Assembly (NCBI GenBank): GCA_000165425.1 | Contig: CT868028.1 | Location: 114,835-178,834, forward strand | From: Paramecium tetraurelia | Taxonomy: Eukaryota | Direction: 5' to 3' | Length of the DNA stretch: 64,000 bases | Shown here: in pieces, positions 1,405 to 55,736 of the stretch | Layout of the letters: each line of letters begins with the position of its first letter | Numbering within the stretch: position 1 is the stretch's first letter | Translations under genes and position numbers: made by a program | Notes under the pieces: model-generated | Database searches by the model: none | Told to the model about the DNA's origin: nothing | The model's input: only the letters and a program-made list of their open reading frames with translations

Positions 1405-3752
1405 TCATAAAATTTTATACATAATCTGCCGTGCAATATATTGAGCAAATCTATTTTTATGACCTCTTATCTTATCCAAGACTTTAGAATATATATTTTA
1501 ATTGTTAATCAACTTAATTACTTTTGTAATATTATAATGAGGATAATAATAATCGTATTCTTCTACTTTATCGATATTTGTTTCAGAATTAAAAATTTAT
1601 GTTTGAATGTCCTCTTAATTTTCTTGGGCATTATTACCTGAAGATGTAGCTGCAAATAAACATCGATGACTCACTTGCCTAGTAATCCTATTCTTAAAAA
1701 CGAATTTTTGTTCTAACTGATTTTGTGGAGTTAACTGAGGAGCATGAACTGAAGTCTAATCAGGATATGATGCTTCGTCTTCATCATTTCTTTGCAAACC
1801 TAATCTAATGAGAAGCTTGTTGTCAACCACAGCAAGTGTTTTGTTCTACTCTAGAAATTATTCAAAGGCTCTTTCCTTAACCAATTAGGAATTAAACCTT
1901 CTTTTCTTTCTCTATCTCATATACATTTGCCTTTCGTGGTCAACACTGCTATTGTAAATTGAGATAACTTTATTCTTATTTTTCCTAAAGAAAACTAATG
2001 GACAATGTTTGAATTGATGATGACTAGAACATGCCTCGCAAATTATCTGATTGTTGTTGTCTCCAAATTAGGTTCCATCCAAAATTAGTCTATACTTTTC
2101 ATACTACCTTGTGTCTTTCTAAAGAATATTCAAGAAATCATTTTAATTGATATAAGCTACTTAGACAAATGTTTAGGCCACCATGTCAAATTGCATCTAA
2201 TCCTAAAAGAAGAATTCTCTTTCACAAACTAATTTACCACTTACATATCTTTTGATTGTCCTATCCAACAAAACTGATTTGATTTTTCCTGAGAGCACAA
2301 TGTAGAGTTTCTCAGGATGATCATCCTTCTTGATTATAAATTCTTCAGGGGCATAGGTTCTTTCATGAACACAATAACATAGTTTTTTTAGTATTTCATC
2401 TGAAAGATTTGAACCTAACAATTTCGATTTCTTGAAATAACTGAAATACATTGCTATTTGAACTTCCTATTTTAATTTTGGATTCAATTGTCCCATCAAT
2501 TCATCCAAATCTAATTCCTCCTCTTATTTAAATTACAAATAATATTCAATATATTTCCGAACTCTAAATTGCAATTAGGTATTTAATCCCCTCTATTTGA
2601 TGTGATTGCTCACTAATCTAAGTTTAGCATTATTAAGATTTTGTTATTCAGCTAATTTGTAGAATATGCTCTAAATCATTCCCAAGGCATATCCAAATGT
2701 ACCCACAACTAGAAATGTCATAAATGTTACAAGTATTTTCTCAGGTGTTGTCACAGGTACTATGTCTCCATATCCCACAGTCATTGAGGTTATGGTTACC
2801 CAATACAACGAAGTAAAGTATTTTACAAATGCATCTGATTCGTATATTCCTTGCTGATGCAGCCAAGTGTGTGAGTATCCATTATCTATTTCAAGAATGG
2901 CAAAGTAATGAAATAAACATGCACAAAAATGAGATATCAGCAAAAGCGAATAAATCAAGCAGAATAGTGAATATATTACTGCTGTCTTTTCTTTGAAATT
3001 AGAGATCTCTTCTATGACTACCATAGTCCTTCTTACCTTGGTCATGCGAATCAACATAAGGTAATTGGCAAATGAGTAGCCGAACCATGAGATTATGAAG
3101 GGTAGCACTACTGTGAGATCAAGAATGAACTCTCCTTTTACGTAATGCCAAAATATATCATGTTTGGAAGTATGTAATATTCCTCTGACATAATAGCCTT
3201 TAAAAAAATTCAAGATTAATTCGATTAAAAATATGCAACTTGGAAGAGTACTAAACAATAAGTAAGCATTTCCAATTTCTTCCTTGCCCAAATCGAATGA
3301 CAACTAGAAGGGAACATACAATATATTCACAATCGTCACAAACATTAAGATGACATCCCACACAAATAGAAATTTGTCAGCAGGTAATAATACAGTTTGA
3401 TTACTTTTAAGGAATGACCATAGTCTCCACCAAATTGCATTCATTAATTTGGCTTCGTACTTGATTTCACCAAACTATATTTTATTAAAATGCCTTATAC
3501 CCTTGTAGGCTGATTTTCTAACAGTCGACTATATAGGTAATATTAAAATGAACTAGTTCGATCCCTAATCAGGTAAAATATATTCTTGTTCAAAATCTTA
3601 AATCTATAAATAGGGGAAAAGTGTTTCATTTTTGTGATAAAAATAGCTATTTTTTGAATAATCTTGAGAGGCTTCATTTTCCATACGCTACTTATTCTAT
3701 AAATTTACTCACTGTTCTCGAACTGTTGTATTTCTTTTTCGACATTATTCAT
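1405..3752 (-). CDS. 6-TM K+ channel with cyclic-nucleotide-binding homology domain (EAG/CNG-like)
   Basis: Pore motif SMTVGYGDI, S1-S6 helices, C-linker and CNBD (ERTYAPEEFIIKKDDHPEKLYIVLSG); 26-nt intron 3475-3500; TGA at 1405-1407; true start may lie ~80 nt upstream. Confidence 0.92.
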
Positions 3753-4313
3753 GGCTTCTAACTCAATCCTCTTGTCCTCCTGATGTTGAGCTTCTTTTAT
3801 GGAAAACTAGAATAAGAATCTCGTCTTTTTTCATGTTATATTTAGATTTATAAATTGTGTTTAAAAATTAAAGCATTCCAGTCATGGAATATGTTCTAGA
3901 ATATGATATAGATGTACCAATAGAAACAACCATCGCAAAAGTATTCTAGATGCAGCCATTTATGCAAAGGAGCACCATTCAGTAATTATCTTGAGGATAA
4001 CTGAACAATTGGAGATTTGAAACAAGATGCTATTGCAAAGTGATGCTATTACGCGAAGAAGACGAGTTATAAAACAAATTGTAATTGGCTATATTATTGA
4101 TGCTTTTCGGTTAAATAAATTGATTAAATATTTAAGAAATATAATAGATTGTTGATATTATGAGAAATACTTATTTAGTTTTTTAGCAAGGTGGATGAAT
4201 ATAATACTGAATAAATGATTTAAATTTATAATCTTATATTTAACTTTTGATGGTAATTGGAATAAAAGGCAATCTCGCTTATTACAACAAAATATAATTA
4301 ATTCATTTATTTT

Positions 4314-7300
4314 ATGGAGGAGGAATAATAAATCTTTCGAAATATGGAGATAATATTATTCTTAGATGCATGGTGGATAATAAGATCTATTATTTGCTCG
4401 CAAGAAACGAACAGTACCTCATGGAAACAAAGCTTTAATTGGGTAATTCTTGCACATTTAACATGTACAATTTCCCTTAACACATGGTGTTCACAGTATT
4501 CCCCAAACTTTTATACGAAGCACAAAAAAAATACAATTCAGACAAGTCCATTGGAGCCTCTTTTGATGTTTAGAAACAACTTCTGTACACGAGAATGGAA
4601 ACCGAAAAAAAATATAATCAAAATCTGTTGAAGCAAACCAGAGGGTAAAAAATAATGTACGGAGATACAATAATGCTCTATTAACCATTGAGTTAAGTCT
4701 TTTTACTAAGAGCGGAGAACAATAATTCAAATTCAAATATCGGAACAATTTTGAGTTCTTCAATGTACTTCACAGTTCAACCTGATCCCTTGGCGTTAGA
4801 CATTAAATAAGGATGTCCAGTACACTCTTTCGATCAATTCCTTCTAGTTCAAAGTGACACAATATTGAAATTTGACACCTTGCAAGAAATTTACCGCCTG
4901 CCTGAAGTAGTGAAATCTTAGAATCTTGATCACAATAACGAATTCCTAACCATCCCAGCCATGATTGAGAATCAATACTAATTCAAGTTTTACAAGGCTC
5001 AATACAAGCAATTCACAACTGATTCAAAAGAGTCCATCAGCCACAACACTCTTCAAGCAATTGTATTGAAATAAGACAAAGACAAAAATCATTTGTTCTA
5101 CGGTCAGTATGTACGCATAGTGCACATGCAATAGAAGATAAAAAAAGAGAGGTAGGAATCAAGGAGAAGATCAATCAAAATTGAGGAAGCTTAAGAAAAC
5201 CAAATTAATAAAGGTTACTTGACATCATCGATTAATGCAGTTGGATGCTACCCCTCAGTTTATCTATAGATTAACGACATCTAGAATTCTGATTCAATCG
5301 AAAGGGCAGCATCTATCTTCTAGATCTTGCCAGAAAATGACCAAAAGTATAGTGATGAAGTTTAATTTACTGTTGGAAATAAACCCAATTTGGTAGGTTA
5401 CACTACTTTCCTGCTTAGACACATGTTAACAGGGGAATTCCTAAGAGTCAATCCTTTCGATAATAAGCTGTAATTATCTAAAGATGTTATCAATAAGTAT
5501 CGATAAATCAATACTACGTCATCAAAAAAACTAGAGACCACAAGATAAAATGAACCAAAGTCTACTGTGTAAAAGAATCTGCCAGGCATCAAATTATATA
5601 GAAATCTAATTACTCAATCAAATAACACCAATTAAAATAATATTAATAATATTCAAACTCAATAGGACGAGCGCATTGCAACTCAATACTAATAAACTTA
5701 AGGAAATATAGAAGAACTTGAATAAGGTTCATGTATGTCTGACCATCAATTGCTATTTGTAACTAAATTGGGCAATAATCCTATATTCTATAAAGATTAG
5801 TTGCCTTTTACAAATGATACAACATTCAATATTGCTACAAAAGATGGAAAATGTCCAATTGAAGTTGACAATTAAGAAGAGGGTGGGTATTAAGTTAAGT
5901 TAATAACCAAGTTAGGAATGTTTAATCAATATGGAGAGGATAACTTGGAGTAAACTCTGTATAGATAATTGCACGATGAGTGGATTACTTTGATCCCTGA
6001 TTTAGATTCATTCATAAAAAAGAATAAATATCAATTATCATCATAAGAAAAAGAAGTTCTTGAGTTCATTGAAGGTGAAAAGAAGAGTCAAGCAAAAAAC
6101 AAAGTTGATATGAGACATTATAAATCTGATGATGAAACCTTTAAACCTACTTTTATTAATTTGAATCCTCTCAATACTAAATACTTGGATGTATTAGCAA
6201 ATGAGGACTTTTCAGGTTCCAATTTTAAATTTGAAGTTGTAGACTAAAGTGAAATAGAAGAATTGAGTGAAGTCTTAGATCTAATGTTCCCACTCACAGT
6301 CTTAGCTAAAAACTCAATCCAACTATCAACTTTAAAATTCAAATTCAGCAATCTTAAATTCAAGGACTCCAAAGAATCCAAAGATCTAGCTTCCCAATTT
6401 CTCAGGTGTCAAGCCTAAGCCGTTCAAAATGTCAATTAGGCAGTCAAGTCACTGTTCAAAATTATGTTATGGTTAACTGCCTCTCAAGAAGCTTTGGCTT
6501 AAGAAAATTTAATCTCTGAACCTTTGGTAAGAAGATAGTGTATTGCCAGAGAAATCGGTTGCATAGACTATGTAAATAAGATAATCTATGAGTTAAATAT
6601 CAATGGGCTATTATATGAAGATAAAGATTCAATCAAGTAGGATGAGGAGATGTTTCAATAGGATATCAATCAACTAATTGATTTGCTTTCCTCGTTTTTA
6701 TAATTGGTTTGTAAGAATTCAAATGATAACTCCTTATACGTCGTCTAATGGTATTGTCTCTATAAGCACATACTGTTGAGAGGATAAGTAAACGATTTGA
6801 TGAGACTAGACATCTTGATTACTTAATTGTTCTAATAGTCAGACGTTATGGTTTCGTTTGAATTTGAAGTCACTCAATTATCGAAGGAAACCAAATCTAC
6901 AAACTACAACAAACATGCTTTTAATTTATTAATTGCCTTTTGTCTTTTCACTGAGTTTAGAAAGAAGGAGGGCATCGAAGGAATAATTGATCATATCTTC
7001 AAGCAAAATAAGGATTCCATATTTGCATAGCTCATATTTGATGGCAATATTCAATTGATTTTGAGGGAAAAGATCTAGGACTTTTAGAAAACCATAAGAC
7101 AATCTATGGATTCAGGTCTTCCCATTTCAAGTCCAATCATGATAGAGGGCTTGAATTTTTCGAACAGACTAGCATTGCACGATTACATCATTTCTTGTGT
7201 GAGGTTGGCTTCAGAAATTTCTAAGTCCTCCCCTGCTTTGACTCTAAAGGAAATCAAGCACTTATTTCCCTTCTATACCGTAGCCAAGATAATCCAAGAT

Positions 7301-10300
7301 AATAGCATTTCATCGTTAACCAAATCGTACTTTTTGGAGTTATTCCAGAATTCCTATATGGCTAAACACTTAAATCCTTTGCCAAGAGCCTAATTCCCTT
7401 AGTATTTAAAAATGGTTGTCAAATAGAACAAAGGGAAAGGATTCTTATCAATGTTTAAAAAAGAAGAGTACGACATCATTCTCTATACATTTGCATAGAA
7501 GAAGATTGCTGATGTCTATTAAAAGGTGGCCAAAAAATATTTGGTGGAAACTGATACAACTGTTGATTTTTGGTTATTTTTATCAGATTTCATCACAAAC
7601 TTTTGGAAAAGCAAATCCATATATGAAATTAAAGGCACTGATCACATTTATATTAAATAATTGATTTTAACATTCACAGAGTTCTTAAAAAAAGGATTAT
7701 TCATTGAATATCTTAGCAATGCTCACAATTTTTATAACATGTACCATAAATTCATTGAATTCCTGAAGAATTCTGTCGTTTCAGCTACTCTAGAGGAGAA
7801 ATACATCAAACATTAGTTGTAGGACAACAAAAAATCAAAGGAGCAGAAACCTTTAGAAGTGAAGGATTATTTGTTTGAGAGTTCAGTGGCATAAAGGGCA
7901 GTGTCTAGAACGACTTATGCAAAGAGTATGATATGGCTTGATGAGTTAATTGAGATTCTAATTCTGTTAGAACAATTTCAGCAATCGAGAATGGCAGACC
8001 AATTTATTATCACAGATGACAACTAAACAATGTTTGATGATCTCCAATACTTATAGAAGTTTGCCAAGGATAAAAAGTATGCAGATGTAGTTTAAAGGTT
8101 GAGATAAGCCAAACGAGCAAGTTATCATACAAGAGGATAGCAATCACAAAGTCAACTCAATCAAAAGGATATATTCACAACTCAAGAGTTGACAACAATA
8201 TTGAGAGAGTGTTCTTATGCTCGTAAGACTGTGATCTTAGAATATTTAGGAGGTATAAAATAAACTGATATATCGTTGGTTTACTTTTTGATTGAATTGC
8301 TTACATTAAATTAAATAAGACTATCAGCCAAAGTGACTGAATTATTGTGGCTGATTTATTCATCAAGAAGTAACTTTCTTTAAACATTGAACTAAACTAT
8401 CTTGATTGAGGCATTTGATCAAGGAGAGTTACAATTATAAGTAAATTAGAACATATTTACAGACTTTTCAAATATTTATTGGAAATTGCATTTTGCAATT
8501 ATAGACTTGAAAGAATCCTTGGAGAAAGACTCTAACAAACATTATGAAACAATTAATGATGCCTTATCAGACATGTTAGTGATATTCTTCCCTGATTATG
8601 CTGCTAAATCTGATATGTAAATGTTCATGGAGATTAATTAATTGGAGAATGAGGAGAAACATTACTAGGCACAAGAAGAGAAGATGGTTAAGAGCAAAAT
8701 AAAATAAGAGGTGGCTGTCATAGAATAGTTTGTATCAAGGGCAGAACTTGATCTAATTGACGTCTCAGCACAAAGTCCAATGAGGGATTAATAAAATGAA
8801 TAATTATAATCACTGAAATCGGCCACAATCGATTAGTAATAAAAGTATGTTTGGAAAATCAATAACTCTCTATCAATTGATGTGTTGACCATCTATTATA
8901 GATAAAAGTTATTGAGATACCTGGGATTTCATGATTTGATGTATAAATTGATTGAAAACCTAATATAAGAAACAAGCACTCTATTTAGAGAGAAGGATGT
9001 CCTTGTAAGCAATGCAAATAAGAAAGGATGGGAGATTAAGAGCGACATCTTAGAAAAGAGTATTCTATTCTTGATTTATTTTGTAATACGAAATGAAGAA
9101 AACCAAGAGATGATACTCAATTTAAGTAAGAGGAAGGATTCCTTTCTACATGAAATGTCTAATGTAAAGAGAAAGCAATTGTAGACTTTAATTTATATTT
9201 TGTTTGCTGAACTGTTTAGAGACAATTACAACATATTATTCTCATTAGATAAGTACAACGACGAAAATTCAATATTGGCGAAATTGTTCGGTATTTTTGG
9301 TAACAACTTTGCAAGTAAAAATTATGAAGCAGCAATCTATTTCCTTTAATTTTTATAAATCCTATTGAAAGTAAAAGAGAGTGAAGTTGTGTAAAACTAT
9401 TCAGTAATTATACAATTGTTTTAATCAACTAAACAATTGGCCACATTTGCCAAAGATATTGCAACTCTGATCCACACTATTTATCTCTTAAGATTGGAGC
9501 AATTCTTTACTGGCAGCCATGCACCTCTGCCTCAAACACCCAATAATTAATAAAGGCATGCATAATTTAATGGATTCATTGAAATGCCTTTAGAGGTGCT
9601 ATTCATGACAGAACTACTAAGATTAATGAGAATTATCTGTTCCAAGAGATCAGTTCTCGTTAATGAATTCGTCAATAAACTCTTTCCAGTTACAAGAGTG
9701 GCTGAAATGTTGAAGTAATTGGACGAATGGTACCCTTTGAAATCAGAACTAATCCTCTATTTTTAGAGTGTGTTTCTGGATAATTTACAATTCTTAACCT
9801 TTGAAGAGAAACAAGAAGTTGTTAAAACCATTACTGAAGTGATATTCAAATAAATGACATTGAGTTTTATTGAGAATTAGAATCTTAAGAAAATGGCAAA
9901 TGCAAAATTAGTAAATAACATAGTATTCAATATCTTTGGAATAAGAAATTAGTACACTAGTTAAGAGTTCATTATGTCAATATCCCACGAGAAAGCAAGC
10001 TTTATCTATGTGATTTTTGGAGTCTTGGAAGTGACTGAAAACTTTGTGAAGAAGGTGTTTCCTAAATTTTTTTAGAGTGATGAACAAGAACACTTTGAAG
10101 ATGTTTAAAATGAAATTATTTTCATGGCATAAACCATAAGTGAAACAGTTCAAAAAGTAAAAGAGTACATTAATGATGTACCTAATGGAGGCACAGGTGG
10201 GAAAATGAAAAATTCGAATTATAAGAGAAGAAGTGGGTAAAAAACAACTAAATTGTTTAATCTAACACATAAATTGCTATCTAGTAACTAGGATGAATAG

Positions 10301-13300
10301 AATCAGGAATTGAGCATTCTGGCTAAAGAAGATAATGAAATTGATAAGATCAATATAATTATGATAGTTAAAACAATAGACTCGGTCAAGCTCTCAGAAG
10401 TTTCCTTTTAATTGTAAAGGAATGATATGCAATAAGCAGAATAAGGAATTCTAAATAAATGGATAAATTCCATTAAATCCTAGAGAACCAAACTAGTAGA
10501 TGAACATCTTGTGGCTTCAGAGAGAGAAAATGAAATTTAATAGTTAGTTAATTTAATTATTACTTTAAAACGAGATGATACCACCAAATTTAAGAGAATG
10601 GTAACTGCCCTTATTTAAATGTTATCTGAAACCTCAGTATCTCCCTCTATCAAGTTGAAATCTATCAATATAGTAAGAAAACTATCTAATTATAAAGAAG
10701 ACTTTCAAGTAACCAAGTCGATACTTAAGGATTTGGGTGAACTTGGATTCACAGATTTTCTATGCGATTTAATCAAACAAGAGGTTGATTCTGAATAAAA
10801 GCTCGAATACATTAAGGCCTTTGTGGATTACATTGATGATTCATCGAGAGAAATTTAGAACTCCTTTTTATTGTATCTACAAAGGGATGTTCAGAACACC
10901 TTTATAAGAAATTTGTAAAACTTCATAACAGACATGTTCTAAGATGTCAGAATGGCAGAGATATCTAGAATAGAGAGGAATAATAAGAATATAAATAAGA
11001 TATTGAATAATAAGATCAATGGTTGCATTTTGATATTTGAAATGTTTCGTCTAGGTTGTGAAGATCATTTTAGTGACATGTAAAACTTTTTGAGGATTCA
11101 ACCTAATAGTAAATAACCAATCAACTTTATTATGTTTACAGCTGAATTATTCGAGAAATACGTTGAAAAAATGAATGAACATAACGCAGCTCTAGGTTAA
11201 AAAATACTAGATTTTTTAATTGAATGCGTTTAGGGTCCTTGTCTCGAGAACTAGACTGAATTATGTTAATCTACTAAGATTTTGGAGGTTCTCGAATAAA
11301 TTATCATTCAATAAAGAGTTGATAATGATAAGTTTTAAAGAAGAGATATCGTATTTTCAAGTTTGAGAAGTAAGGTGTTCTTACTTTAATTATCCTTAAT
11401 GGAAGGTAATAGTGATTAAGAAATTGCAAATAAGATATCTCAATATTTCAATCCTCAGATACTCTTCGAGAGAATATAATTAGTTTACTGGAAGATTATC
11501 AAAAAGATAAGAAATACATAAATGCAAATAAATTTAGAGTTGAAAGTGTTGGATAGAGTGAAAACGGAAGCTGAAGAATCTGTAAATCTGCACGGAATCA
11601 TACAGACCAAGGATACTAAGGAGACTTTACCTAATTAAAATTTATTCATGGAGTTCTTCTCGGAGAACTTTAATAGTTCTCGTGGTCCATCACATCTCAG
11701 AGAGTCATAACAAACTTAAGTAAATGCTATACAGGAAGAGGAGATGGAAGAAATGGTTGGTGAAACCTTTATGATGTATCTATTACTCAAGAAACTCAGC
11801 AATTACATTCCCCAAATCAAAAACTTAACTGATGGCGAAAACAATCCCAAATTGAGAAGAGCTCTGAATTACTACAAAAATGAGACTGCCTCCATTGAAA
11901 TTGTGAATATGAATGGCAAATTAGAGAAAATATACTTTTAGGTTCCCACTCTGATGAAATATTTGACAGAAGAAACCAAACACTAATTCATGGAAGAAGT
12001 AGAAAGAGATTCTATCAATGATAAGATCAATGGCTTGCTAGATAACATGGATAACTTTTATATGGAAATGGTGCATTTTATGAAGTTACGAAAAATCGGA
12101 ATCAGATTTAACAATAATTTTATTGTTTATCTGAGAAATGTCTGCATTATTTTGGCTCTCCTCTTGAACATCCTAATTACAATAAATGACACTGAAGAAA
12201 AGCTGGCAAACCTTGCCAAAGCCATAGCTATTGTGAATTGCATTTTGTATGGATTGATTATGCTCACCTGGGTATTTATCAGAATGCAATTGGAGTACGA
12301 TCGAATCTATAAATAGGTGTCAGATTTGATCCAATTAAATTACAATAAGAAATCGAATCAAGGATAGACTTAATAGGTCAATCCAAAAACAGTCATTTAT
12401 CCTTTCCAAATTACATTATTGCAAGCATTCTTAATTATAAAACGAATGTTATTTAGTAGTTACACCTTTTATTGGTTCTTATTGCTGGTCATCAATTTGT
12501 TGGGTTTGCTGTATAATAAATTATTTTATGGGTTTCTACTGTTGGATATCATAGATCATTCGCAAGTGTTAAGAAATGTCATCAAAAGTATTTCACTCAA
12601 TTACAAACAACTTTTGATGACAGCCTTATTGGGAGTCTTAATCATGTATTTAAACATAGTATTTATTTAGGTATTTGTACTCTTTGGTCGCATACTAAAG
12701 CACTGATTTTAAATAATAATTGAAAGATGGCAATGATAATAATGGAGATGATGAAGTTACTGATCCTTTAGATTAGACGGTCTGTTACTCTGCATTTTAA
12801 TGTCTTGTGTATGTAATTCACTAAGGTTTACGAGCAGGTGGAGGAATAGGAGATGCTCTTGAAGCACCTCCGACTCATTCAAACTTAAACTATTATTCAT
12901 AGAGAGTTCTTTATGATGTGACTTTTTTCATTCTCATTAATATCATTTGGCTGAATATCATCTTTGGTATTATTATTGATACCTTTGCTGAATTGAGAGA
13001 TTAGAAGAATCAAAAAGGTAACCTATTATTGTACTATTCAAGATTTCGATTCTCAGAACAGATGTTATATTTGCGACTTAACAAGAACAGTATTTGAAAA
13101 AGAAGGTATATCTTTCGACAATCACGTTCAAAAATATCATAACCCTTGGAATTATCTGGCTTATTTGCTATACTTAAAAGTGAAGCAGAAAACCGAGCAT
13201 ACAGGCACAGAATCATATGTCTATAGTAAATTCCTGCAAAATGATATAAGTTGGTTGCCCATTTAAAAGGCACTTGATTTAGAATTAATTGCAGAACAAT

Positions 13301-13736: not shown

Positions 13737-16785
<3,049 letters not shown>

Positions 16786-22096: not shown

Positions 22097-22992
22097 ATGA
22101 ATTTGGAAGAAATTCTTCTGCACCTGTTTGATAAGACCTTAGACTCTAGTTCCAATGATCATCTGTAAACCATTTTAGCCAGTCAAGCCAAGATTATACA
22201 ATTGAAAAAGGAGAATGTCACTCCAACCATTATCCATTAGAAATCATCAATATAAAAAAAATTAGATACCTTAGATAAGAAAATTCTTAACAGAGATAGT
22301 CTTAAAAGTAAGAGGAAATCAAAAAATGACAATGTTTTCAAAACTGCCTCCCAACATGAAAATGATAATACATAAAAGTTCGTAATCAATAATAATGAAG
22401 ATTAAAAAGATCAATCACTACTAAAATTATAGAACAAACAATTGTAAACTCTGATTGCCTCACTGGAATTTAAATAAAGAGAAAAATACTTACAAAATTG
22501 CAATCGCATCAGATAAATTCAATAAGAGAAAGAGAAATTATTAGAGAACAATACAAACTTGAATGAAAAATAAGAAAAACTCAATCAAAGATCATAAACT
22601 CTAATGTAGAAATAAGTGATTTTAGAAAAACAAGAAAAGTAAATGCAATATTAAGGATTATGCATATAACAAAATTAATAAGAATAGTAAAAAAATGTAA
22701 TAAATTTTATTATTAATTTTAGGATGAATTATTAAATGAAAGGAGAGAACACATGGAAGGATTGCAGATGAAACTTAATGAATTCGTTAGTCAGTTATTA
22801 AATTTGGCAAATTCAAAAAATAAAGTCGAAAATTAATTGCCTATATAATTTGATGCTATTGAATTCCTGATTCAATACATTCTAAAAGAAAGATCTATAC
22901 TGCAATCAGAATAACAATATCTAAGGAAATTTAAGTAGGATGTTCTAAATGAGAAAAAGCATGTCTTAGAATTGAAAGATTAATTTTCATGA
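22097..22992 (+). CDS. Hypothetical coiled-coil protein, probable paralogue of 37958-38893
   Basis: Code-6 ORF with intron ~22697-22722; N-terminus LLHLFDKTLDSSSNDHLQTILASQAKIIQ. Confidence 0.65.
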
Positions 22993-23122
22993 TTTCAAAC
23001 TTTTAAACAATTTTTCATTTGTCATATCTAAATAATTAACTTATTTGTAGCGATAATGATAAATTCAATAATGAAAATTACATTTATATAAAACTTAATA
23101 AATATTATTTAATTAAACTCTT

Positions 23123-24400
23123 ATGCAATAATTGGAAACTCAATATTGCTATTATAGCAATTTCAATTTATTTGAAAGCACATCTCAATTGTTAAAGAGA
23201 GATAAGTTTGTTAAATCATTATTGCTAACTCTAGGAGAGGAATGGCGCATATATGCTGGACAAGCAATCACTATAGAATTAGATGGATAAGTACATCATT
23301 TCGCATGGCAATTTTGTTTTGAGAATTTACTTTTTGCTTGGTTAGAGAACGAAGATACACCGTATTTAGAATTTTATGATAAATCAATTTAACGCATAAG
23401 TCCTTATAATATAGGTATCAATCAAATAATTTAAATTAGATGTGGTTTATTTTAGGCCTGTTTTTGATGGTTTCTTCTATTCTGCTTAATAATTGTGGTA
23501 AAAAATGAGATTGAGCAGACCACCCTCCCAAGAATCCTTCAAATCTTTAGATCAAATTAAGTAAGAGGAAATTAAACCAATGTCAAATATTCTAAAACCA
23601 TTGGTGGTTGTAAGTGAAAGGATTATCAATTATTTCAGAAAAGAAGAGCAAGCATAGCCTTAAAGAATGGAATATCCATAATACTAATAGCCAAGTTGGA
23701 AACAAATCTCTAAACTCACAGAAGATTCTTTGCCTCTTGAATTGATCGAGAATGCATACATCTACGTCAGTTAATTCATTCAAAAAACATACAAGAATTG
23801 TCAAGTAGCAAAATCATTCATCGTTAATATTATTGAACTAAATCATGATGCGCTTAGCAAATTCCAAATCTCAAATTAACAAATCAAAATTAGAATAATG
23901 TAGCCATCTTGTTTGATGTACGATAATTTACTATCAATTTGGACGTTAGCAAATGCAGGTATTTAACCTCAATACTTTGATCTTATCGACAGGGCTAAAT
24001 CTTTATTGGGTAATAATTGGAAAGACAATTATTAATAGCCTGTGGAAGTGTTTTTTTAAATGATGTCCAAACTGCATGGCAGCATCATTCTAAATCCATA
24101 GATAAAGTCAGAAGATTAATTAAACCATTTGCTATAGAATATGAGAATTCAAATGGCTCAATTGTGGGAATAAGAAATAGTTTAATCAACTTTAGAAAAA
24201 TAATGATTAATGTTATATTGTGTATAAAATGTGAAATATTTCAATTTAATTCAGAAATGATTAACCCTCAATTGATGGAAAGTGGAGAACAGAGATTTTC
24301 CAAGATCTAGTGCTGAACAAACTCTTTGATTAACATTTAACCTTGGAGGAATTTGTCCTATTAATCTTCAAGAATTTTTCCATCAAAATTGTTTAATTGA
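23123..24400 (+). CDS. Hypothetical protein (3' end uncertain)
   Basis: Long code-6 ORF MQQLETQYCYYSNFNLF... with 25-nt intron at ~23415-23439. Confidence 0.5.
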
Positions 24401-24880: not shown

Positions 24881-24951
24881 TTGACCGTCGCACATAGGAA
24901 GTGCAACTGATTGTAGCTCAGAAGGTTATGGTTCGATTCCATATGGTCAGA
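24881..24951 (+). tRNA. tRNA-like gene 1 (subtype A), loop TTGTAGC, nominal anticodon GTA (Tyr)
   Basis: TTGACCG-TC-GCAC-ATAGGAA-GTGC-A-ACTGA-TTGTAGC-TCAGA-AGGT-TATGG-TTCGATT-CCATA-TGGTCAG-A folds as a cloverleaf; T5 run downstream. Confidence 0.8.
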
Positions 24952-25118
24952 ATGTTTTTATAATCATAACTTTTTTATTTTACAAGAATAACTTGATAAA
25001 TTCAAGATAATTTCAATTATCACGCAAATCTTGTTATATTATTACTTTATGATAGTGAATAGATACTAGATTATTCTAACTTAATTAATATAATCCTTTA
25101 TGAGATATTTTTTAATGA

Positions 25119-25189
25119 TTGACCGTCGCACATAGGAAGTGCAACTGATAGGATGTCGGAGGGTTATGGTTCGATTCCATATGGTCAAG
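25119..25189 (+). ncRNA. tRNA-like gene 2 (subtype A), loop TAGGATG, nominal GGA; lacks U33 and purine 37
   Basis: 4 differences from gene 1 outside the loop; perfect B box GGTTCGATTCC; T-run terminator. Confidence 0.8.
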
Positions 25190-25311
25190 ATTATTTTTAT
25201 TAATACTTTTATTTTTAATTTAAGACCATTTTACATAACCAACTATTAATACATCCAAGAATTCATTAAATTATTGTATTTTAGTTATTACTTATTTATA
25301 ATATCATAGTA

Positions 25312-25383
25312 GTGATCCTCGCACAAATGGTAGTGCAACCGAAAGACAATCGGAGGGATATGGTTCGATTCCATGGGGTTACA
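25312..25383 (+). ncRNA. tRNA-like gene 3 (subtype B), loop AAGACAA, nominal GAC; lacks U33
   Basis: GTGATCC/GGGTTAC acceptor, GCAC/GTGC D stem, CCGA/TCGG anticodon stem, TATGG/CCATG T stem. Confidence 0.8.
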
Positions 25384-25549
25384 ACTTTTAATCATAACTT
25401 TTTATTGTGAATTGAAGGTTATTTAAAAAATAACTTTAGAAATTCAAGAAATTCTTATTTATATTGTGAATTTTTGTATTATGATGTTAATAGATATTCG
25501 ATAATTATAAGAAAATTCAGATTTAAGCTAATGAAAAAATATTCAATGA

Positions 25550-25620
25550 TTGACCGTCGCACATTGGAAGTGCAACTGATTGCAAGTCAGAGGATTATGG
25601 TTCGATTCCATATGGTCAAT
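25550..25620 (+). tRNA. tRNA-like gene 4 (subtype A), loop TTGCAAG, nominal anticodon GCA (Cys), U73
   Basis: Cloverleaf fully paired except the A27:A43 mismatch; B box and T-run present. Confidence 0.8.
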
Positions 25621-25715
25621 ATTATTTTATTAATACGTATATTTTTAAATTATAACATCCAATAATCAAATAATTTATTTTATTTTTGTAATTATCTATT
25701 TAAAATATCATAGTA

Positions 25716-25786
25716 GGAACCCTCGCACAATGGTAGTGCAACCGATTACATATCGGAGGGCATTGGTTCGATTCCAATGGGTTTCG
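25716..25786 (+). tRNA. tRNA-like gene 5 (subtype B), loop TTACATA, nominal ACA
   Basis: GGAACCC/GGGTTTC acceptor; ATTGG/CCAAT T stem (compensatory relative to gene 3); CTTTTT follows. Confidence 0.8.
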
Positions 25787-25957
25787 CTTTTTATCATATC
25801 TTTTTATTGTGAATTGAGGAATATTTAAAAAATAACTTTAGAAATTCAAGAAATTCTTAGTTATATTGTGAATTTTTGTATTATGATGTGAAAGTTAATA
25901 GATATTCTATAATTATAAGAAAATTCAGATTTGAGCTTATGAAAAAATATTCAATGA

Positions 25958-26028
25958 TTGACTGTCGCATATAGGAAGTGCAACTGATTGCTAGTCAGAG
26001 GGTCATGGTTCGATTCCATAGGGTCAAT
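25958..26028 (+). tRNA. tRNA-like gene 6 (subtype A), loop TTGCTAG, nominal GCT without a long variable arm
   Basis: Same body; G7:G66 and C49:A65 mismatches suggest decay. Confidence 0.75.
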
Positions 26029-26260
26029 ATTATTTTTTAACTAATATAGATTATTATTTAACAATAAAAATATATAAATTAGGGTCAGTCACACTTTTTT
26101 TAAATAACCTATTTATTATGAATTTTATGCATTTGATAAAAAAAAACAATCTAATGTCTAGGTATCTTCAATTATTCTATGAAATTCGCCATTTATTTAG
26201 CTAGTGATTGAATAATTACAAATAAATTAATATTGTAATTTAAAAGAAAAATTTCAATGA

Positions 26261-26331
26261 TTGACCGTCGCATATAGGAAGTGCAACTGATCGCAAGTCA
26301 GAGGGTAATGGTTCGATTCCATAGGGTCAAT
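26261..26331 (+). ncRNA. tRNA-like gene 7 (subtype A), loop TCGCAAG, nominal GCA; C33
   Basis: Same body; G7:G66 and A49:A65 mismatches; T6 terminator. Confidence 0.75.
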
Positions 26332-26660
26332 ATTATTTTTTAATTATTTAGATTATTATAATTAATTAGAATTTAGTGAAAAAAATTTATTTAAGAAATT
26401 CTAGATTATTTTTGAATTATTTAATAATTATAGTGAAATAATTAAAAGAAGTAATTACAAATATCATTTGGGCCCATTCCTTTATTTATATTTTTCAATC
26501 AAACTAATCATAAACAGGATTCAATAACAGTATAATACTTTTATTGAAATTAAATAATAGATTTTTGTTCTCAATAATTCATAGAATTACTATATATTTA
26601 GAACTATAATCTTGAATTGAATAATTATGGTGGATATATTATAAAATTTAACATAAAAAA

Positions 26661-27817
26661 TCAAATCAAATTTTTTCTGCAATTATTTGATCTAGCAGAT
26701 CTTTGTGTGTATCGATGGTATAGAATTCATCAATCTTTTTATCTGGCATAATTTAAGAATAGGTTTTGGTTTAGAATGTAGAAACTAATTTTAGGAAGAA
26801 TAATACTTTTTTCTTAAATATTTCTGATTCTTGATGAAAGCATACATTAGTAATTGGACAAAGTTTAAAGATGCATTAATTTATATTGCAAGGCTTCATC
26901 TACGTCCATATTTGGTTGTTTTTCGTAATACTTGATCATATTATTAACAGTGCTAGTCAATCGATCTAATTATTCATATTATTGAATAATTAGTTGTTCT
27001 TAATATTTTTAGGGAACAGAAAACTATTAATTAAGTCTAACTGTGCCGGATAATTGATCATATGATTCCTTCATAGTTTGTTAAGCTTTTTAATAATCAT
27101 TGCATTGAGCCTCTTCTTTTTTTAAGACTTCAAGCCCATCCTCTGTAATTTTCTAAACCAATCCAACAGTCGAAATGTATTCATTTAGATTTTTAGACAA
27201 ATCCTTTTAACCAGCTAAAATCTATTCAGAAGTATCTAGAACAGATTTGGTATCAATTTGAAAGACTATTTGAGAAATTGGCTAGATCATTTATTACCAT
27301 TATTAGTTTTAAGCAGGTTGATTAATAAAGGTTTTTTCTGTTTCACCGATCTTTAGAGTCAATGCATTATATTTTTCTTTAAAGGCATTAGAATCATTAA
27401 TTAAAGTTTGAATCTAATTTTATTGAGGATATTATAGACCATTCTACATCATTCCTGGTTACTATTATTAAGGCGTGGTAGCAAATAAATTAGGTTATTA
27501 TCCAAAGGCTGGTTATGTGTTTCCAAATAGGTTAGGAGTTGTCGTTGATGTAGGACCAAATAAACCTTAATTTTGAGCTGGTTATCCTAATAATGATGTT
27601 TATCCAAATCCACCTATAGAATAATATATATGGAAATACCTATCCCTTGTTAAGTTTAAGTATTTGTCTATCCAAACATCATATTATTTTATTGCGTTGT
27701 TTATGGATTGTTAAAGAGGTTATTTGATTATTGAGCAGCAGGTGCAGAGAATATGGAATTTGTTTAAGGAGGTTAATTTCCGAATAAACCTTATTATGTT
27801 GCATTTGGATTGAACAT
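26661..27817 (-). CDS. FG-repeat nucleoporin with C-terminal coiled coil (Nup58/Nup49-like)
   Basis: GLFG, MMFG, GFG, GLFG, NLFG, PAFG repeats in a Q/N/T-rich N-terminus, then a helical region; two short introns. Confidence 0.75.
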
Positions 27818-27883
27818 ATTAAATGCTTTAATTATTTGTTTAAATTATTTGAATATTTATTTTAGTAAAATAATGAATAATAC

Positions 27884-28482
27884 TCAATTCAATGGATAGT
27901 TTAAATATTATGTGAATTGAGGAATATATTTCTGAGGATAATGATGACCATATGATAACAAGAGAATTTTATTTTAAAACCTTTCAATGTCAGTCCAATT
28001 AAGTGGCATCAGTTTAAAAACTAATGATGTTAACCCATTTCTATCAAATGAACCACTGCAACTGGAGAAAGTATCACCTGGATAATTTAAATAAAATACC
28101 ATAATTTTCAATGTTAAATGACTCTCCCAAACAAGATGCTTTAAAGTGCATAGATTAACCGTTATACGTCACAAATTATAAAGAGGTGATGTACATTCCA
28201 TCATAAGTGCCAGTCACCTACTATAAATCTACATAACCCATTAAAATTACAATCATCCTTTTCTATAACGAACTCTTCTTCCCATACATAGAAATAAAAC
28301 TTGCTGAGACTATTGGCACAGAAATTATGATCTTTATAGATTTATCTCTATTCATAAAATATTCCTATCGCTACTATATTTTGTTTATTGTATTGGATTT
28401 TGACTCTAGTTATTTTATCTATCATTCCATCATCAAAATCATCCCCCTAGGGTTTACCAATCGATAGATATTTGCCTTCCAT
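27884..28482 (-). CDS. Jacalin-like (beta-prism) lectin domain protein
   Basis: GKPQGDDFDDG...ITRVKIQY...EEFVIEKDDYLQQVTGTYDGMYITSLQFVTYNG...FSSCSGSFDRNGLTSLVF; two 22-nt introns. Confidence 0.7.
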
Positions 28483-53202: not shown

Positions 53203-55365
53203 AAAAATTTTATTATTACAATCAATACTATGATGTAATTACTTAAATTTAATACCATAGAATGCACTCATTTTGATAAACATATTTAATACTAATTCCA
53301 AAGTGATACCAAAAAGAGATAGTTCTTAAGATAAGTCATTGTACTAAACCAGAAAAACCAATATGAAACGAGAAGAAGATTTATATTGAAGTTCAATATG
53401 AAAACCTTGGCTCAAATCAGAATTGCCTATACTTAATCTAATAATGCATTAAGATTCCCAACGAAGAATGAGAAGAAAGTGGAAGATGCACATCAATATA
53501 TTAACTGAAAAAATAGGGGAAGTATAGAAAAGGATGAGAATATGACTCAACAAATATAATAGGGCCCAAGATAAATCTACAAAATGGAATACAAAAATAA
53601 GATTATTAAAGATTTATTTACTAAAATCAGAAATTATCAGATTCCATTTATAATTTAATTTGTTAATTGCATCTAAAAGGAAAGGTGAAGCGGACTATAT
53701 ATTTTATCTAACTTAAACCTCATCAGACTTGATCTATTGACACCATTTAAGAAGTAAATATGTAATTTTTGATTTAGTTTTAGAAATTAATTGTCCTCAA
53801 ATAATTATTTAATATTGGCAAACAGAATTTACCTATTTTTTGAACTAGCTGTTAGGATGGGTGAACTTAAGTAAATAACATTTTATTCTAGAACCTTTAG
53901 ATCTTAAATTTTACATCCTCAATTGATAAAAGACACGGAAGATTTAGAGTATAAGTTTAAGGAGAACAGATTAGATACACATCTTTAAGAATATTTTATT
54001 TTAAAATTTTTCTTTTTTCTAATTGTTTTGTTCATTCTTACCTGACCTACACTTAAATTAAACTGAGCTGAGATTACAGAATTTTCAATCCTTCTTTTAT
54101 AACCCTTAAATTTTTTAGTTATGCTTAGATTAATGGAGAAAATCTGAACTTTTTTGTTGTTGTTAATTTCAATTTATTATTAAATTTTTCTTTTCTATTT
54201 TTTCACATGTTTCAATCTAACTTATTAATTCATAACTTTTGTTATAAGGAGATTGGTTGAAAAATAGAATATTAAAACTCAATTGTGTTTTAAACACATC
54301 ATTTTCATAAATGATAAACAGTATGTTGTACAAACCATATGCCTATTTAGCAGTGTTTGACTATTGTATGAAAAAGGTTGAGATTCATCTTTATTTGAGT
54401 TGACCGTTCTTGACTTTTTAATATCAGACTGGAAATTAAATTCGATTATGTAATTAGAAATCAAAATGTTTTAGGAAGATTAAATATTTTAATTTGACTT
54501 AAGAGAAAAGATCAGTTGATACGATTTTTTCGAGTAGCAAAGAATAAGTCAGCTCAAATTTAAGAATAAAAAAAGTCTGATTATAAATAAGTATTGGAAA
54601 AAATAAAATATCAAAAAAATACAGATTAAATTAGGAGCAAGAAAAGAATTAGAGACCTGATTAATCATTTGAAACTAAATTACAAAAAACTAAAATAAAT
54701 TAATGGAAACCTCACTTCGTTAGAATCGAATAAAATGTCTTAGAAAATGTTCAAGAAGTAGGACTAAATTTGGATACATTGATTTTTGCAAGCTGGAATC
54801 AGTAATAATCTTAGAAATATAAGGAAAAATAAACACAAATTAAAGTGCGAAAATGTCCAAAGAATTTTGTTCATAAGACTATGTCCACAGAATAATAATT
54901 CTCTAGACAAATAAATAATTTTCAAAAAATCATTGATTTGCCAGTTTCCATTTCTACTTTTGGATAAAATCCTCTTGTAAAAATAGAAAAAATTTAGAAC
55001 ATTACAATGGTCTAGAATTCTATAATTTGTTCTTCCAAAGACTTTATGATAAATCATTTTTATAGGAGAATTTCATAAAAGATGGAGGACTTTTGAAGCA
55101 AATTTTTTCCATATTTAAAATGATTATTGTTTTTAGAACCTAAATTTCAATATATAAGTTTTGGAATGACCTTAAATTAGGATTTTAGGTTCTCACAATA
55201 TCAATTTTAAGTTAAAAACTATTTATTTCAAGGTAAGTATTAAATTATATCATTGTTGTTTTTAATTTATAATATTAGTTTACCAAAACACACTCTTTCC
55301 TACAAACACAAATTGTAAAAAATTTCCTGAATTGATCATAGTAGAAATGTAAAATGACAAAAACT

Positions 55366-55435
55366 TGACCCTTGAGGAATTGAACCTCGAGCTTCCAATT
55401 ATGAGTTGGTTGCACCACTATTGTGCGAAAGAATC
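55366..55435 (-). tRNA. tRNA-like gene 8 (dispersed family member), loop CTCATAA, anticodon CAT (Met)
   Basis: GATTCTT-TC-GCAC-AATAGTG-GTGC-A-ACCAA-CTCATAA-TTGGA-AGCTC-GAGG-TTCAATT-CCTC-AAGGGTC-A; T5 terminator; shares C9, the GCAC/GTGC D stem and A27:A43 with the array. Confidence 0.75.
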
Positions 55436-55736
55436 AATATATAATAGCCATCCAAAGATTAAGTGAGAATATAAAATTTATATATCTAGGCTATGATTTA
55501 GATGTCTCAATCTCATTAAATTATCTAAGATGATCAAGAGTTCTTGAATTATTTTGTATATATATTTTGGTTCTAAGTAATTTAAGAATGCTTTTGGTTG
55601 CTTTAATACATAAAAATAATTATTGAGATAAATATTATAATAGTAGTGATTTAGACTCATCATTTCCCTTATTTTGAACTATAAATTATTATTTTGGAGA
55701 ATTCATTAATGAAAGGATAAGAAATATGTTAAGCTA

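What the first reader, a model, noticed from the sequence alone, without database searches (positions are those of the whole stretch)
24881..26331. Tandem array of seven non-canonical tRNA-like genes: conserved cloverleaf, a different anticodon loop in every copy
Seen in sequence: seven 71-72 nt elements, all on the + strand within 1.45 kb of otherwise non-coding DNA. Each folds into a cloverleaf and has the B box GGTTCGATTCC and a T>=4 run downstream. Stems change compensatorily between copies: acceptor TTGACCG/TGGTCAA vs GTGATCC/GGGTTAC vs GGAACCC/GGGTTTC; anticodon stem CTGA/TCAG vs CCGA/TCGG; T stem TATGG/CCATA vs ATTGG/CCAAT. The 7-nt loops all differ: TTGTAGC, TAGGATG, AAGACAA, TTGCAAG, TTACATA, TTGCTAG, TCGCAAG. 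Established: true isodecoder copies keep the anticodon loop and U33, as the two identical tRNA-Lys genes in this window do. Inference: a Pol III-transcribed tRNA-mimic family selected for structure but not for decoding. It could act as decoys for anticodon nucleases or synthetases, as a source of tRNA-fragment small RNAs (Tetrahymena Piwi Twi12 binds tRNA 3' fragments), or as missense-reading tRNAs. I do not recognise it as a described family.
Basis: partly seen in the sequence, partly recalled or inferred. Interest (0 to 1): 0.88.

Follow-up and report, generated by a model that had tools for sequence, protein, structure and literature searches.

The report
Paramecium tRNA-Cys-like array, scrambled anticodons
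A Paramecium chromosome carries a row of seven tRNA-shaped genes descended from a cysteine-type tRNA, of which only one still looks able to decode, while four others keep a perfect tRNA fold but have let the anticodon loop change freely.

Summary
Seven 71-72 nt tRNA-shaped genes lie on the + strand at 24881-26331 of Paramecium aurelia-complex nuclear DNA. An eighth relative lies at 55364-55437 (-). All seven have a perfect B box, a T run 2-5 nt downstream, and a different 7-nt anticodon loop.

It is not a uniform mimic family. The array grew by unequal crossing-over inside the genes. Copy c4 has U33, GCA, A37 and U73, the marks of a decoding tRNA-Cys. Copies c6 and c7 carry two broken stem pairs each and look like decaying copies.

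Copies c1, c2, c3 and c5 keep every stem pair, some through compensatory changes. They have lost the Cys anticodon loop and discriminator.

Substitutions pile up in the loop: 8 of 20 in one subfamily and 6 of 17 in the other. Flanks of the older copies are close to random. This fits selection on the fold but not on decoding.

I could obtain no expression data and no other Paramecium genome. Pseudogenes kept alike by recombination therefore remain a serious rival.

Closest precedents are eukaryotic anticodon shifts and a co-located Loxodes tRNA cluster read as pseudogenes.

Interest is moderate, 0.5.

The parts
24881..24951 (+). c1, A-type body. Loop TTGTAGC (U33, GUA, G37), discriminator A, U1.G72. 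All 20 scored stem pairs are standard. It sits where B-type genes sit in the repeat unit.
25119..25189 (+). c2, A-type body. Loop TAGGATG (A33, U37), discriminator G. All scored stem pairs are standard. Below the Rfam tRNA threshold.
25312..25383 (+). c3, B-type body (G1-C72), 8-nt D loop. Loop AAGACAA (A33), discriminator A. All scored stem pairs are standard. Missed by both ARAGORN and Rfam.
25550..25620 (+). c4, A-type. Loop TTGCAAG (U33, GCA, A37), discriminator U73. The only copy with the full tRNA-Cys decoding and identity set; probably a working tRNA-Cys gene.
25716..25786 (+). c5, B-type. Loop TTACATA (U33, ACA, U37), discriminator G. All scored stem pairs are standard. It differs from c3 by changes on both sides of three pairs.
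25958..26028 (+). c6, A-type. Loop TTGCTAG (GCU), U73. Two non-standard pairs: G.G at alignment columns 7/65 and C.A at 48/64. Mosaic: its upstream resembles c4's, while its 3' end and downstream resemble c7's.
26261..26331 (+). c7, A-type. Loop TCGCAAG (C33, GCA), U73. Two non-standard pairs: G.G at alignment columns 7/65 and A.A at 48/64.
55364..55437 (-). c8, eighth relative, 29 kb away. Same D arm and the same A.A at 27-43. Its acceptor resembles the A type, with 2+1 extra nt. Loop CTCATAA (CAU, a canonical Met-type loop); only 4 T-stem pairs are standard.
25190..25549 (+). Repeat unit 1: short spacer, B gene c3, long spacer. It lies between A genes c2 and c4.
25621..25957 (+). Repeat unit 2: short spacer, B gene c5, long spacer. 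It lies between A genes c4 and c6. It is 80-93% identical to unit 1 outside the B gene.
24952..25118 (+). Older copy of the long spacer, between c1 and c2. It aligns along its length with the c3-c4 and c5-c6 spacers.

Best explanation
This is a tandem array of Pol III tRNA-type genes descended from a tRNA-Cys-like gene. It was built and reshuffled by unequal crossing-over whose breakpoints lie inside the genes.

The copies fall into three states:
1. c4 is a normal decoding tRNA-Cys(GCA).
2. c6 and c7 are decaying Cys copies.
3. c1, c2, c3 and c5 are kept as correctly folding tRNA-shaped RNAs that no longer decode.

The third group has lost the GCA anticodon and U73, which CysRS reads. c2 and c3 also lack U33, and c5 has U37. 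Their stems, tertiary-contact bases, A and B boxes and terminators stay intact.

Shown here: the anatomy, the mosaic flanks, the excess of loop changes, and the fold-preserving pattern of stem changes.

Inferred: that the copies are transcribed, processed into stable uncharged tRNA-like RNAs, and kept by selection for a role outside decoding. The role itself is unknown. The only published hook I saw is that 135 of the 198 annotated tRNA loci of P. tetraurelia (about 68%) give 23-nt small-RNA clusters.
For: Fold:
- c1-c5 have 0 non-standard pairs among the 20 scored; pair 27-43 is A.A in all seven.
- c3 and c5 differ at 8 stem positions in 5 pairs. Three pairs changed on both sides and none is broken.
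- Only 0.74% of 200,000 neutral trials with 10 body substitutions keep all pairs.

Loop versus rest:
- Minimum substitutions are 8 in the 7 loop columns against 12 in the other 64 columns for the A type (P=0.00038).
- For the B type they are 6 against 11 (P=0.0043).
- Pairwise, c1-c2 differ at 4/7 loop and 4/64 body positions (p=0.0022). c3-c5 differ at 6/7 and 10/64 (p=0.00034).

Not only promoter constraint: outside the A and B boxes the loop is still in excess (P=0.0053). The acceptor and anticodon stems are in deficit (P=0.0028).

Flanks:
- The 40 nt upstream of c1 and c2 match at 17/40, against 13.7 +/- 3.0 for random 40-mers. Their bodies match at 60/64.
- c3/c5 flanks are 80-93% alike, yet their loops match at 1/7. 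P(at least 6 of 7 differ) is 0.00037 or less at flank-level divergence.

Expression signals: the B box is invariant, the tertiary-contact bases U8, A14, G18, A21 (tRNA numbering) and the T loop are invariant, G19 holds on all but c8, and T4-6 runs are kept in three different downstream flank types.

Identity: U73 and G34-C35-A36 are the listed eukaryotic Cys determinants (Table 1 and the Cys paragraph of PMC9976931). Only c4 has all of them together with U33.

Context: the array lies between the 3' ends of two convergent ORFs.
Against: - I have no evidence of transcription. No RNA holder was listed, and 0 reads of an oligo-dT RNA run could be laid.
- No orthologue, ohnologue or other family member could be fetched. 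Everything rests on eight copies in one window, and the numbers are small.
- Recombination inside the genes is demonstrably active. Part of the body similarity may be homogenisation, not selection.
- c6 and c7 show plain decay.
- Rfam scores are low, and c2 and c3 fail the threshold.
- Single-sequence MFE folds are not cloverleaves for c1, c2 and c6. The z-scores are weak, +0.05 to -2.7.
- The eukaryotic Cys core determinants in the table, G15:G48 and A13:A22, are absent from c4.
- The loop statistics were framed after seeing the data.
Confidence: 0.48

Rival explanations
1. This is ordinary tRNA gene-family turnover. Unequal crossing-over keeps making spare copies of a tRNA-Cys gene. All copies except c4 are pseudogenes. 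Their bodies look conserved because recombination and gene conversion within the array keep homogenising them. The loops are simply what has escaped so far.
For: - Flanks and bodies are mosaic. c6 has c4-like upstream (38/40) and c7-like 3' end and downstream. c1 has an A-type body at a B-type position.
- c6 and c7 have two broken pairs each.
- c4/c6 body divergence (6/64) is about the same as flank divergence.
- There is a precedent in another ciliate. Co-located Loxodes magnus tRNA genes with similar bodies and different anticodons were read as 'likely pseudogenes' (passages of bioRxiv 10.1101/2023.10.09.561518).
Against: - Homogenising tracts confined to a 71-nt gene should cover the central loop at least as often as the ends. 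Yet the loop is 6-fold richer in substitutions per site (8 per 7 columns against 12 per 64).
- No stem pair is broken in c1, c2, c3 or c5, despite flanks near random for c1/c2.
- Three pairs changed on both sides between c3 and c5, which neutral drift rarely gives (0.74%).
- From recall, not tested here: a 1.45-kb block of dead DNA would be unusual in the compact Paramecium macronuclear genome.
Confidence: 0.27
2. Some copies are working decoders with a new identity (alloacceptor shifts). One example would be c1 as a Cys-to-Tyr shift (GCA to GUA). The array would then be a nursery for anticodon remodelling or for deliberate missense reading.
For: - c1 keeps U33 and a purine at position 37, and has an intact fold.
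- Four of c1's six private changes give U35, G37, G72 and A73.
- A73, G72 (as part of C1-G72), G34 and U35 are the listed eukaryotic Tyr determinants.
- Single-base shifts at position 35, with covarying identity sites, are documented in eukaryotes (PMC3923123, abstract and section 7).
- c8 has a perfect Met-type loop on the same scaffold.
Against: - c1 has U1, not C1.
- c1's 3' end abuts a B-type downstream spacer and shares A73 with c3. G72 and A73 may therefore come from recombination.
- c2 and c3 lack U33, c7 has C33, and c5 has U37.
- The GGA and GCU anticodons would need the long variable arm of tRNA-Ser, which is absent.
- No charging or ribosome data exist.
Confidence: 0.1
3. The function is at the DNA level. 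The copies would be kept as TFIIIC/Pol III binding sites, for example as boundary or nucleosome-positioning elements between two convergent genes. The RNA itself would be irrelevant.
For: - The B box is invariant and the A-box region nearly so in 7 of 7 copies.
- The anticodon loop lies between the two boxes, where such a function imposes no constraint.
- The array lies between the 3' ends of two convergent ORFs.
Against: - The acceptor and anticodon stems lie outside the boxes. They are nevertheless poorer in substitutions than expected (P=0.0028).
- Their changes keep pairing, including changes on both sides of a pair.
- Terminators are kept in every copy.
Confidence: 0.08

Closest known systems
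tRNA anticodon shifts (alloacceptor and isoacceptor) in eukaryotic tRNA gene families; Rogers & Griffiths-Jones 2014, PMC3923123 (abstract and section 7 read)
   Same: Paralogous or orthologous tRNA genes share a body but carry different anticodons. Changes at position 35 are the most common. Identity sites sometimes covary. c1 (GCA to GUA), c6 (GCA to GCU) and c5 (GCA to ACA) are one-base shifts of this kind.
   Different: The published cases keep a canonical loop and were filtered for stable structure, and most involve a single base. Here c2 and c3 changed 3-4 loop bases and lost U33. In addition, every one of eight copies differs.
Co-located tRNA-Trp-like genes of Loxodes magnus with different anticodons (CUU, CUA, CCU); bioRxiv 10.1101/2023.10.09.561518 (passages read)
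   Same: Both are in ciliates. Both are clusters on one contig with similar sequence and structure but different anticodons.
   Different: [quoted passage not shown] Here only c6, c7 and c8 show that. c1, c2, c3 and c5 have intact, compensated stems.
tRNA pseudogenes from local tandem duplication
   Same: The array arose by tandem duplication through unequal crossing-over. c6 and c7 have broken pairs and low covariance-model scores.
   Different: Substitutions are not spread evenly. The loop, discriminator and variable region take most of them. The stems of four copies take only fold-preserving changes.
Non-decoding tRNA-like RNAs and tRNA-derived small RNAs. Examples: cell-wall tRNA-Gly of staphylococci, Bacillus cereus tRNA-Other and Twi12-bound 3' tRNA fragments of Tetrahymena (all recalled, not read); 23-nt small-RNA clusters at 135 of 198 annotated (about 68%) P. 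tetraurelia tRNA loci (PMC6735861, passages read)
   Same: In each case a tRNA fold is used or kept without ordinary decoding. Small-RNA production from tRNA loci is reported in Paramecium itself.
   Different: None of these is a tandem family in which the anticodon loop differs in every copy. No link between this array and any small-RNA pathway was tested.

Membership tests
Cytosolic tRNA (Rfam RF00005) | Reaches the family's gathering score (29 bits) | tested here: inconclusive
   5 of 7 array copies pass: c5 51.1, c4 48.3, c1 46.6, c6 33.1, c7 30.7 bits. c2 and c3 are not listed even at E<=1. c8 scores 44.5 and the tRNA-Lys genes 71.2.
Cytosolic tRNA (Rfam RF00005) | Cloverleaf with 7-bp acceptor, 4-bp D, 5-bp anticodon and 5-bp T stems | tested here: inconclusive
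   The acceptor, D and T stems are fully paired in c1-c5. Pair 27-43 is A.A in 7 of 7, so the anticodon stem has 4 bp. c6 and c7 have two further non-standard pairs each.
Cytosolic tRNA (Rfam RF00005) | Decoding loop with U33 and a purine at position 37 | tested here: not met
   U33 is present in 4 of 7 (c1, c4, c5, c6). A purine at 37 is present in 5 of 7 (c1, c3, c4, c6, c7). Both are present in 3 of 7 (c1, c4, c6).
Cytosolic tRNA (Rfam RF00005) | Conserved tertiary-contact bases, T loop and B box | tested here: met
   U8, A14, G18, G19, A21 (tRNA numbering) and GGTTCGATTCC are invariant in 7 of 7.
tRNA-Cys | Discriminator U73 | tested here: inconclusive
   3 of 7 have it (c4, c6, c7). c1 and c3 have A; c2 and c5 have G. 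Determinant as listed in PMC9976931 Table 1.
tRNA-Cys | Anticodon G34-C35-A36 | tested here: inconclusive
   2 of 7 have it (c4, c7). Only c4 combines it with U33.
tRNA-Cys | Core determinants listed for Eukarya (G15:G48, A13:A22) | tested here: not met
   A-type copies have U15 and U48. Pair 13-22 is C-G in c1, c2 and c4, and U.G in c6 and c7.
Neutrally decaying tRNA pseudogene | Substitutions spread evenly and break stems; the body diverges like the flanks | tested here: not met
   Not met for c1, c2, c3 and c5, which show a loop excess, no broken pair, and bodies far more alike than flanks. Met in part for c6 and c7, which have two broken pairs, and for c4/c6, whose body divergence is about the flank divergence.
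tRNA-derived SINE / retroposon | tRNA-related head followed by an unrelated body and tail; dispersed copies with target-site duplications | tested here: not met
   Each element ends at the discriminator and is followed by a T run. The shared flanks are tandem repeat units of about 400-430 bp. The family model finds no dispersed partial copies in the 64 kb.
Alloacceptor anticodon shift (Rogers & Griffiths-Jones) | Same body, anticodon changed (usually by one base), canonical loop and stable fold kept | tested here: inconclusive
   c1 fits. c6 has a one-base change but a damaged fold. c5 has a one-base change but U37. c2 and c3 do not fit, with 3-4 loop changes and no U33. Orthology, which the published method requires, is not testable here.
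tRNA-Sec (considered for c8 only) | 9/4 acceptor/T-stem fold with UCA anticodon and a long variable arm | tested here: not met
   c8 can draw a 9-bp acceptor and a 4-bp T stem. However, its anticodon is CAU and its variable region is short. The Rfam clan competition reports tRNA.

The most novel reading that the evidence does not exclude
The anticodon loop of this family is not merely unconstrained but driven to differ. Paramecium would then keep a set of Pol III tRNA-shaped RNAs with a fixed scaffold: 4-nt variable region, A.A at 27-43, and a shared D arm. The 7-nt loop would be a variable recognition module. It could serve as a panel of decoys or baits for anticodon-reading enzymes or nucleases, or as precursors of small RNAs. 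In support, c3 and c5 differ at 6 of 7 loop bases inside repeat units whose spacers are 80-93% identical.
Probability: 0.15. Interest if true: 0.85.

Novelty: new variant of a known kind. Interest (0 to 1): 0.5.

Why it matters
tRNA genes are normally read as either decoders or dead copies. If four of these copies really are held to a perfect tRNA fold while their anticodon loops run free, then a well-studied model ciliate has a class of tRNA-shaped RNAs with a job outside translation.

Each copy carries a unique loop, so each can be told apart in tRNA-seq data. That would make the question of what non-decoding tRNA-like RNAs do directly testable.

If they are only pseudogenes, the array is still a clear example of how unequal crossing-over and anticodon change turn over tRNA families in a compact genome.

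Tried and rejected
- Own genome: none is held, so I could make no census, ohnologue or orthologue comparison.
- Public runs: no RNA holder was listed.
- Laying four runs: 0 reads of the oligo-dT raw RNA run were laid. Contigs of three runs guessed to be RNA cover genes and spacers alike. Several contig ends fall where c6 and c7 share identical sequence. I draw nothing on expression from them.
Among the 120 parsed matches, only 6 had a T-arm motif downstream. All 6 have long inserts before the T arm and 0.37-0.53 G+C, so none has the family's architecture.
- Family-specific patterns in genome contigs (2 scans) and viral contigs (2 scans): 0 matches.
- Earlier findings of this scan: nothing on this genome or sequence.
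- Literature: eight searches found no description of this family in Paramecium. That includes a search for a 20-nt string of the D arm (0 papers).
- The Tetrahymena genome paper gave only methods text on tRNA. The tRNAscan-SE 2.0 paper mentions ciliates only in its reference list.
- Loop inversion or template switching as a one-step origin of the odd loops: no forward or reverse-complement template lies nearby. The two extra 7-mer matches lack the flanking context.
- SINE and tRNA-Sec readings are rejected (see membership tests).
- The first gapped flank comparison was discarded. Random AT-rich 60-mers already gave 77% identity, and the loop index was off by one. It was replaced by ungapped anchored counts.
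- The 'c1 is becoming tRNA-Tyr' reading is kept only as a minor rival. c1's 3' end joins a B-type spacer.
Full report
ORGANISM AND SETTING

The window reads as ciliate nuclear DNA. With TAA and TAG read as Gln there are 122 stop-to-stop frames of at least 150 aa, including one of 2831 aa. Under the standard code there are 3.

A leucine-rich-repeat protein from the window is 96% identical to a P. primaurelia protein, 93% to P. sonneborni and 86% to P. tetraurelia. The window therefore belongs to the Paramecium aurelia complex. No whole genome is held for it.

The array lies in a 2.5-kb gap between the 3' ends of two convergent frames, 22953-24206 (+) and 26730-27983 (-).

THE OBSERVATION

Seven tRNA-shaped genes stand on the + strand:

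| Copy | Coordinates |
|---|---|
| c1 | 24881-24951 |
| c2 | 25119-25189 |
| c3 | 25312-25383 |
| c4 | 25550-25620 |
| c5 | 25716-25786 |
| c6 | 25958-26028 |
| c7 | 26261-26331 |

- GGTTCGATTCC and the tertiary-contact bases U8, A14, G18, G19 and A21 (tRNA numbering) are invariant across the seven array copies.
- A T4-6 run starts 2-5 nt after the discriminator in 7 of 7 copies. The background is 0.13-0.18, and the run is kept in three different downstream flank types.
- On the cloverleaf I supplied, 92.5% of 147 pair cells are standard pairs and 7 of 21 pairs change on both sides. None of 500 shuffles reached the covariation score. Sliding the partners drops pairing to 24-37%.
- ARAGORN finds 5 of the 7 and Rfam tRNA finds 5 of the 7. 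c3 is missed by both.
- Sixteen sequencing-run rows hold 0.95 of the sampled words of the stretch; the 20 rows holding any part of it come from 10 studies.

A model built from the seven copies finds one more relative in the 64 kb. This is c8 at 55364-55437 (-), scoring 47.9 bits against 27.3 for the tRNA-Lys genes. Nothing else scores above 10.6 bits.

ANATOMY

There are two body types.

- A type (c1, c2, c4, c6, c7) starts U1-A72. c1 has U1.G72.
- B type (c3, c5) starts G1-C72.

All copies share the D arm, a 4-nt variable region and an A.A mismatch at 27-43, which leaves a 4-bp anticodon stem. c8 has the same D arm and the same A.A mismatch. Its acceptor resembles the A type, and it carries 2+1 extra bases.

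| Copy | Loop (positions 32-38) | Discriminator |
|---|---|---|
| c1 | UUGUAGC | A |
| c2 | UAGGAUG | G |
| c3 | AAGACAA | A |
| c4 | UUGCAAG | U |
| c5 | UUACAUA | G |
| c6 | UUGCUAG | U |
| c7 | UCGCAAG | U |
| c8 | CUCAUAA | G |

Only c4 combines U33, GCA, A37 and U73. U73 and G34-C35-A36 are the listed determinants of eukaryotic tRNA-Cys (PMC9976931, Table 1 and the Cys paragraph). The core determinants in that table, G15:G48 and A13:A22, are not present in c4.

Both subfamilies' loops lie a few substitutions from the c4 loop, from 1 change (c6, c7) to 4 (c3). I therefore read the whole array as tRNA-Cys-derived, with c4 the probable working gene.

HOW THE ARRAY WAS BUILT

The repeat unit is [gene X, long spacer, A gene, short spacer].

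- Spacers c3-c4 and c5-c6 are 93% identical over 106 nt.
- The 40 nt upstream of c4 and c6 match at 38/40.
- The short spacers are 80-89% alike.
- The c1-c2 spacer aligns along its length with those two long spacers.

So c1, which has an A-type body, sits where B-type genes sit.

c6 has c4-like upstream sequence. It shares its 3' part and its downstream flank with c7.

Unit borders fall inside the genes. This is what unequal crossing-over between the 71-nt homologies predicts. Gene bodies are thus uncoupled from their flanks.

WHERE THE CHANGES FALL

| Subfamily | Minimum substitutions, 7 loop columns | Minimum substitutions, other 64 columns | P |
|---|---|---|---|
| A type | 8 | 12 | 0.00038 |
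| B type | 6 | 11 | 0.0043 |

The next most variable places are the discriminator and the variable region. The T loop has no change.

| Pair | Loop differences | Body differences | One-sided p |
|---|---|---|---|
| c1-c2 | 4/7 | 4/64 | 0.0022 |
| c3-c5 | 6/7 | 10/64 | 0.00034 |
| c4-c6 | 1/7 | 6/64 | 0.53 |
| c4-c7 | 1/7 | 5/64 | 0.48 |

The two younger pairs, c4-c6 and c4-c7, show no excess.

Outside the A and B boxes the loop is still in excess (P=0.0053). The acceptor and anticodon stems are in deficit (P=0.0028).

c1-c5 have no non-standard pair among the 20 scored. c6 and c7 have two each.

c3 and c5 differ at 8 stem positions in 5 pairs, and 3 of those pairs changed on both sides. None is broken. 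In a neutral simulation only 0.74% of 200,000 trials kept all pairs.

Flanks of the older copies are near random. c1/c2 upstream matches at 17/40, against 13.7 +/- 3.0 for random 40-mers. Their bodies match at 60/64.

READING

Whatever the history of duplication or conversion, the loop has changed several-fold faster per site than the rest since each pair of copies was last identical. The stem changes in c1, c2, c3 and c5 preserve pairing.

Homogenisation confined to a 71-nt gene should cover the centre at least as often as the ends. It therefore does not explain a variable loop in a constant body.

The simplest account is selection on the fold and on Pol III signals, but not on decoding, in c1, c2, c3 and c5. 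c4 decodes normally, and c6 and c7 are decaying. I give this 0.48.

The steps from 'fold is constrained' to 'a stable, uncharged RNA with a role of its own' are inferred.

The only published hook I saw concerns P. tetraurelia. There, 135 of the 198 annotated tRNA loci (about 68%) give 23-nt small-RNA clusters with antisense reads (PMC6735861, passages).

RIVALS

1. Pseudogenes kept alike by recombination (0.27).
- For: the mosaics, c6/c7, and the Loxodes precedent, in which co-located look-alike tRNA genes with different anticodons were called likely pseudogenes.
- Against: the position of the variable site and the fold-preserving changes.

2. Anticodon-shifted decoders (0.10).
- For: c1's private changes give U35, G37, G72 and A73. 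Three of them (U35, G72, A73) are among the listed Tyr determinants. One-base shifts at position 35 are known.
- Against: c1 has U1. Its 3' end joins a B-type spacer and shares A73 with c3. c2 and c3 lack U33.

3. DNA-level tDNA function (0.08). The constraint on stems outside the promoter boxes argues against it.

WEAKNESSES

- I have no expression data.
- I have no other Paramecium sequence.
- There are only eight copies, and the tests were framed after seeing the alignment.
- Rfam scores are low (31-51 bits).
- Single-sequence MFE folds are not cloverleaves for c1, c2 and c6. Their z-scores run from +0.05 to -2.7, against -2.7 for tRNA-Lys.

KNOWN OR NEW

Eight literature searches found no description of this family. 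Supplements were not consulted.

The kind is known: tRNA paralogues that share a body and differ in anticodon, tRNA pseudogene clusters, and non-decoding tRNA-like RNAs.

The variant would be new. It is a tandem family in a model ciliate in which four members keep a compensated fold while every loop differs.

I rate it a new variant of a known kind, interest 0.5.

Noticed in passing
window 55364-55437 (-): An eighth family member (c8) lies 29 kb from the array. ARAGORN and Rfam call it tRNA-Met(CAU), at 44.5 bits. It has a perfect Met-type loop, CTCATAA. Its T stem has only four standard pairs, and its acceptor stem can be drawn with 9 bp. Relative to the A-type body it has 2+1 extra bases. 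Whether it is the working elongator tRNA-Met of this species is open.
   Followed up: partly
window 55667-55841 and 56701-56875: The two identical tRNA-Lys(UUU) genes are the cores of a 175-nt inverted repeat, 95% complementary, with 859 nt between the arms. Their identity reflects a recent inverted duplication.
   Followed up: partly
window 24881-26331 and 55364-55437, positions 27-43 of each gene: All eight family members have an A.A mismatch at the top of the anticodon stem, which leaves 4 bp. A preprint reports at least one tRNA-Trp with a 4-bp anticodon stem in P. biaurelia, and discusses such stems in connection with UGA reading. c4, the probable tRNA-Cys(GCA), is a near-cognate of UGA, the only stop codon here.
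   Followed up: no
window 25385-25548 and 25787-25957: The long spacer downstream of the B-type genes is 93-95% identical between units. It is better kept than the B genes themselves (54/64 body positions, 1/7 loop positions) and than the short spacers (80%). It contains an internal ATTGTGAATT repeat. No Rfam family matches it.
   Followed up: no
window 25830-26337: In one run guessed to be RNA, contig depth over c6, the c6-c7 spacer and c7 is 16-35, against 3-10 over the left part of the array. Two other runs hold only pieces around c6. The nature of the runs is not on record, so this is not evidence of transcription.
   Followed up: no
window 4211-12706 (+), 49145-51634 (+), 1405-3708 (-), 14524-16785 (+), 60790-63234 (-): Neighbouring frames match known families: RyR/IP3R-associated domain (2831-aa frame), P-type cation ATPase, cyclic-nucleotide-binding ion channel, DEAH-box helicase and a UBR-box protein. 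These are ordinary Paramecium genes.
   Followed up: no
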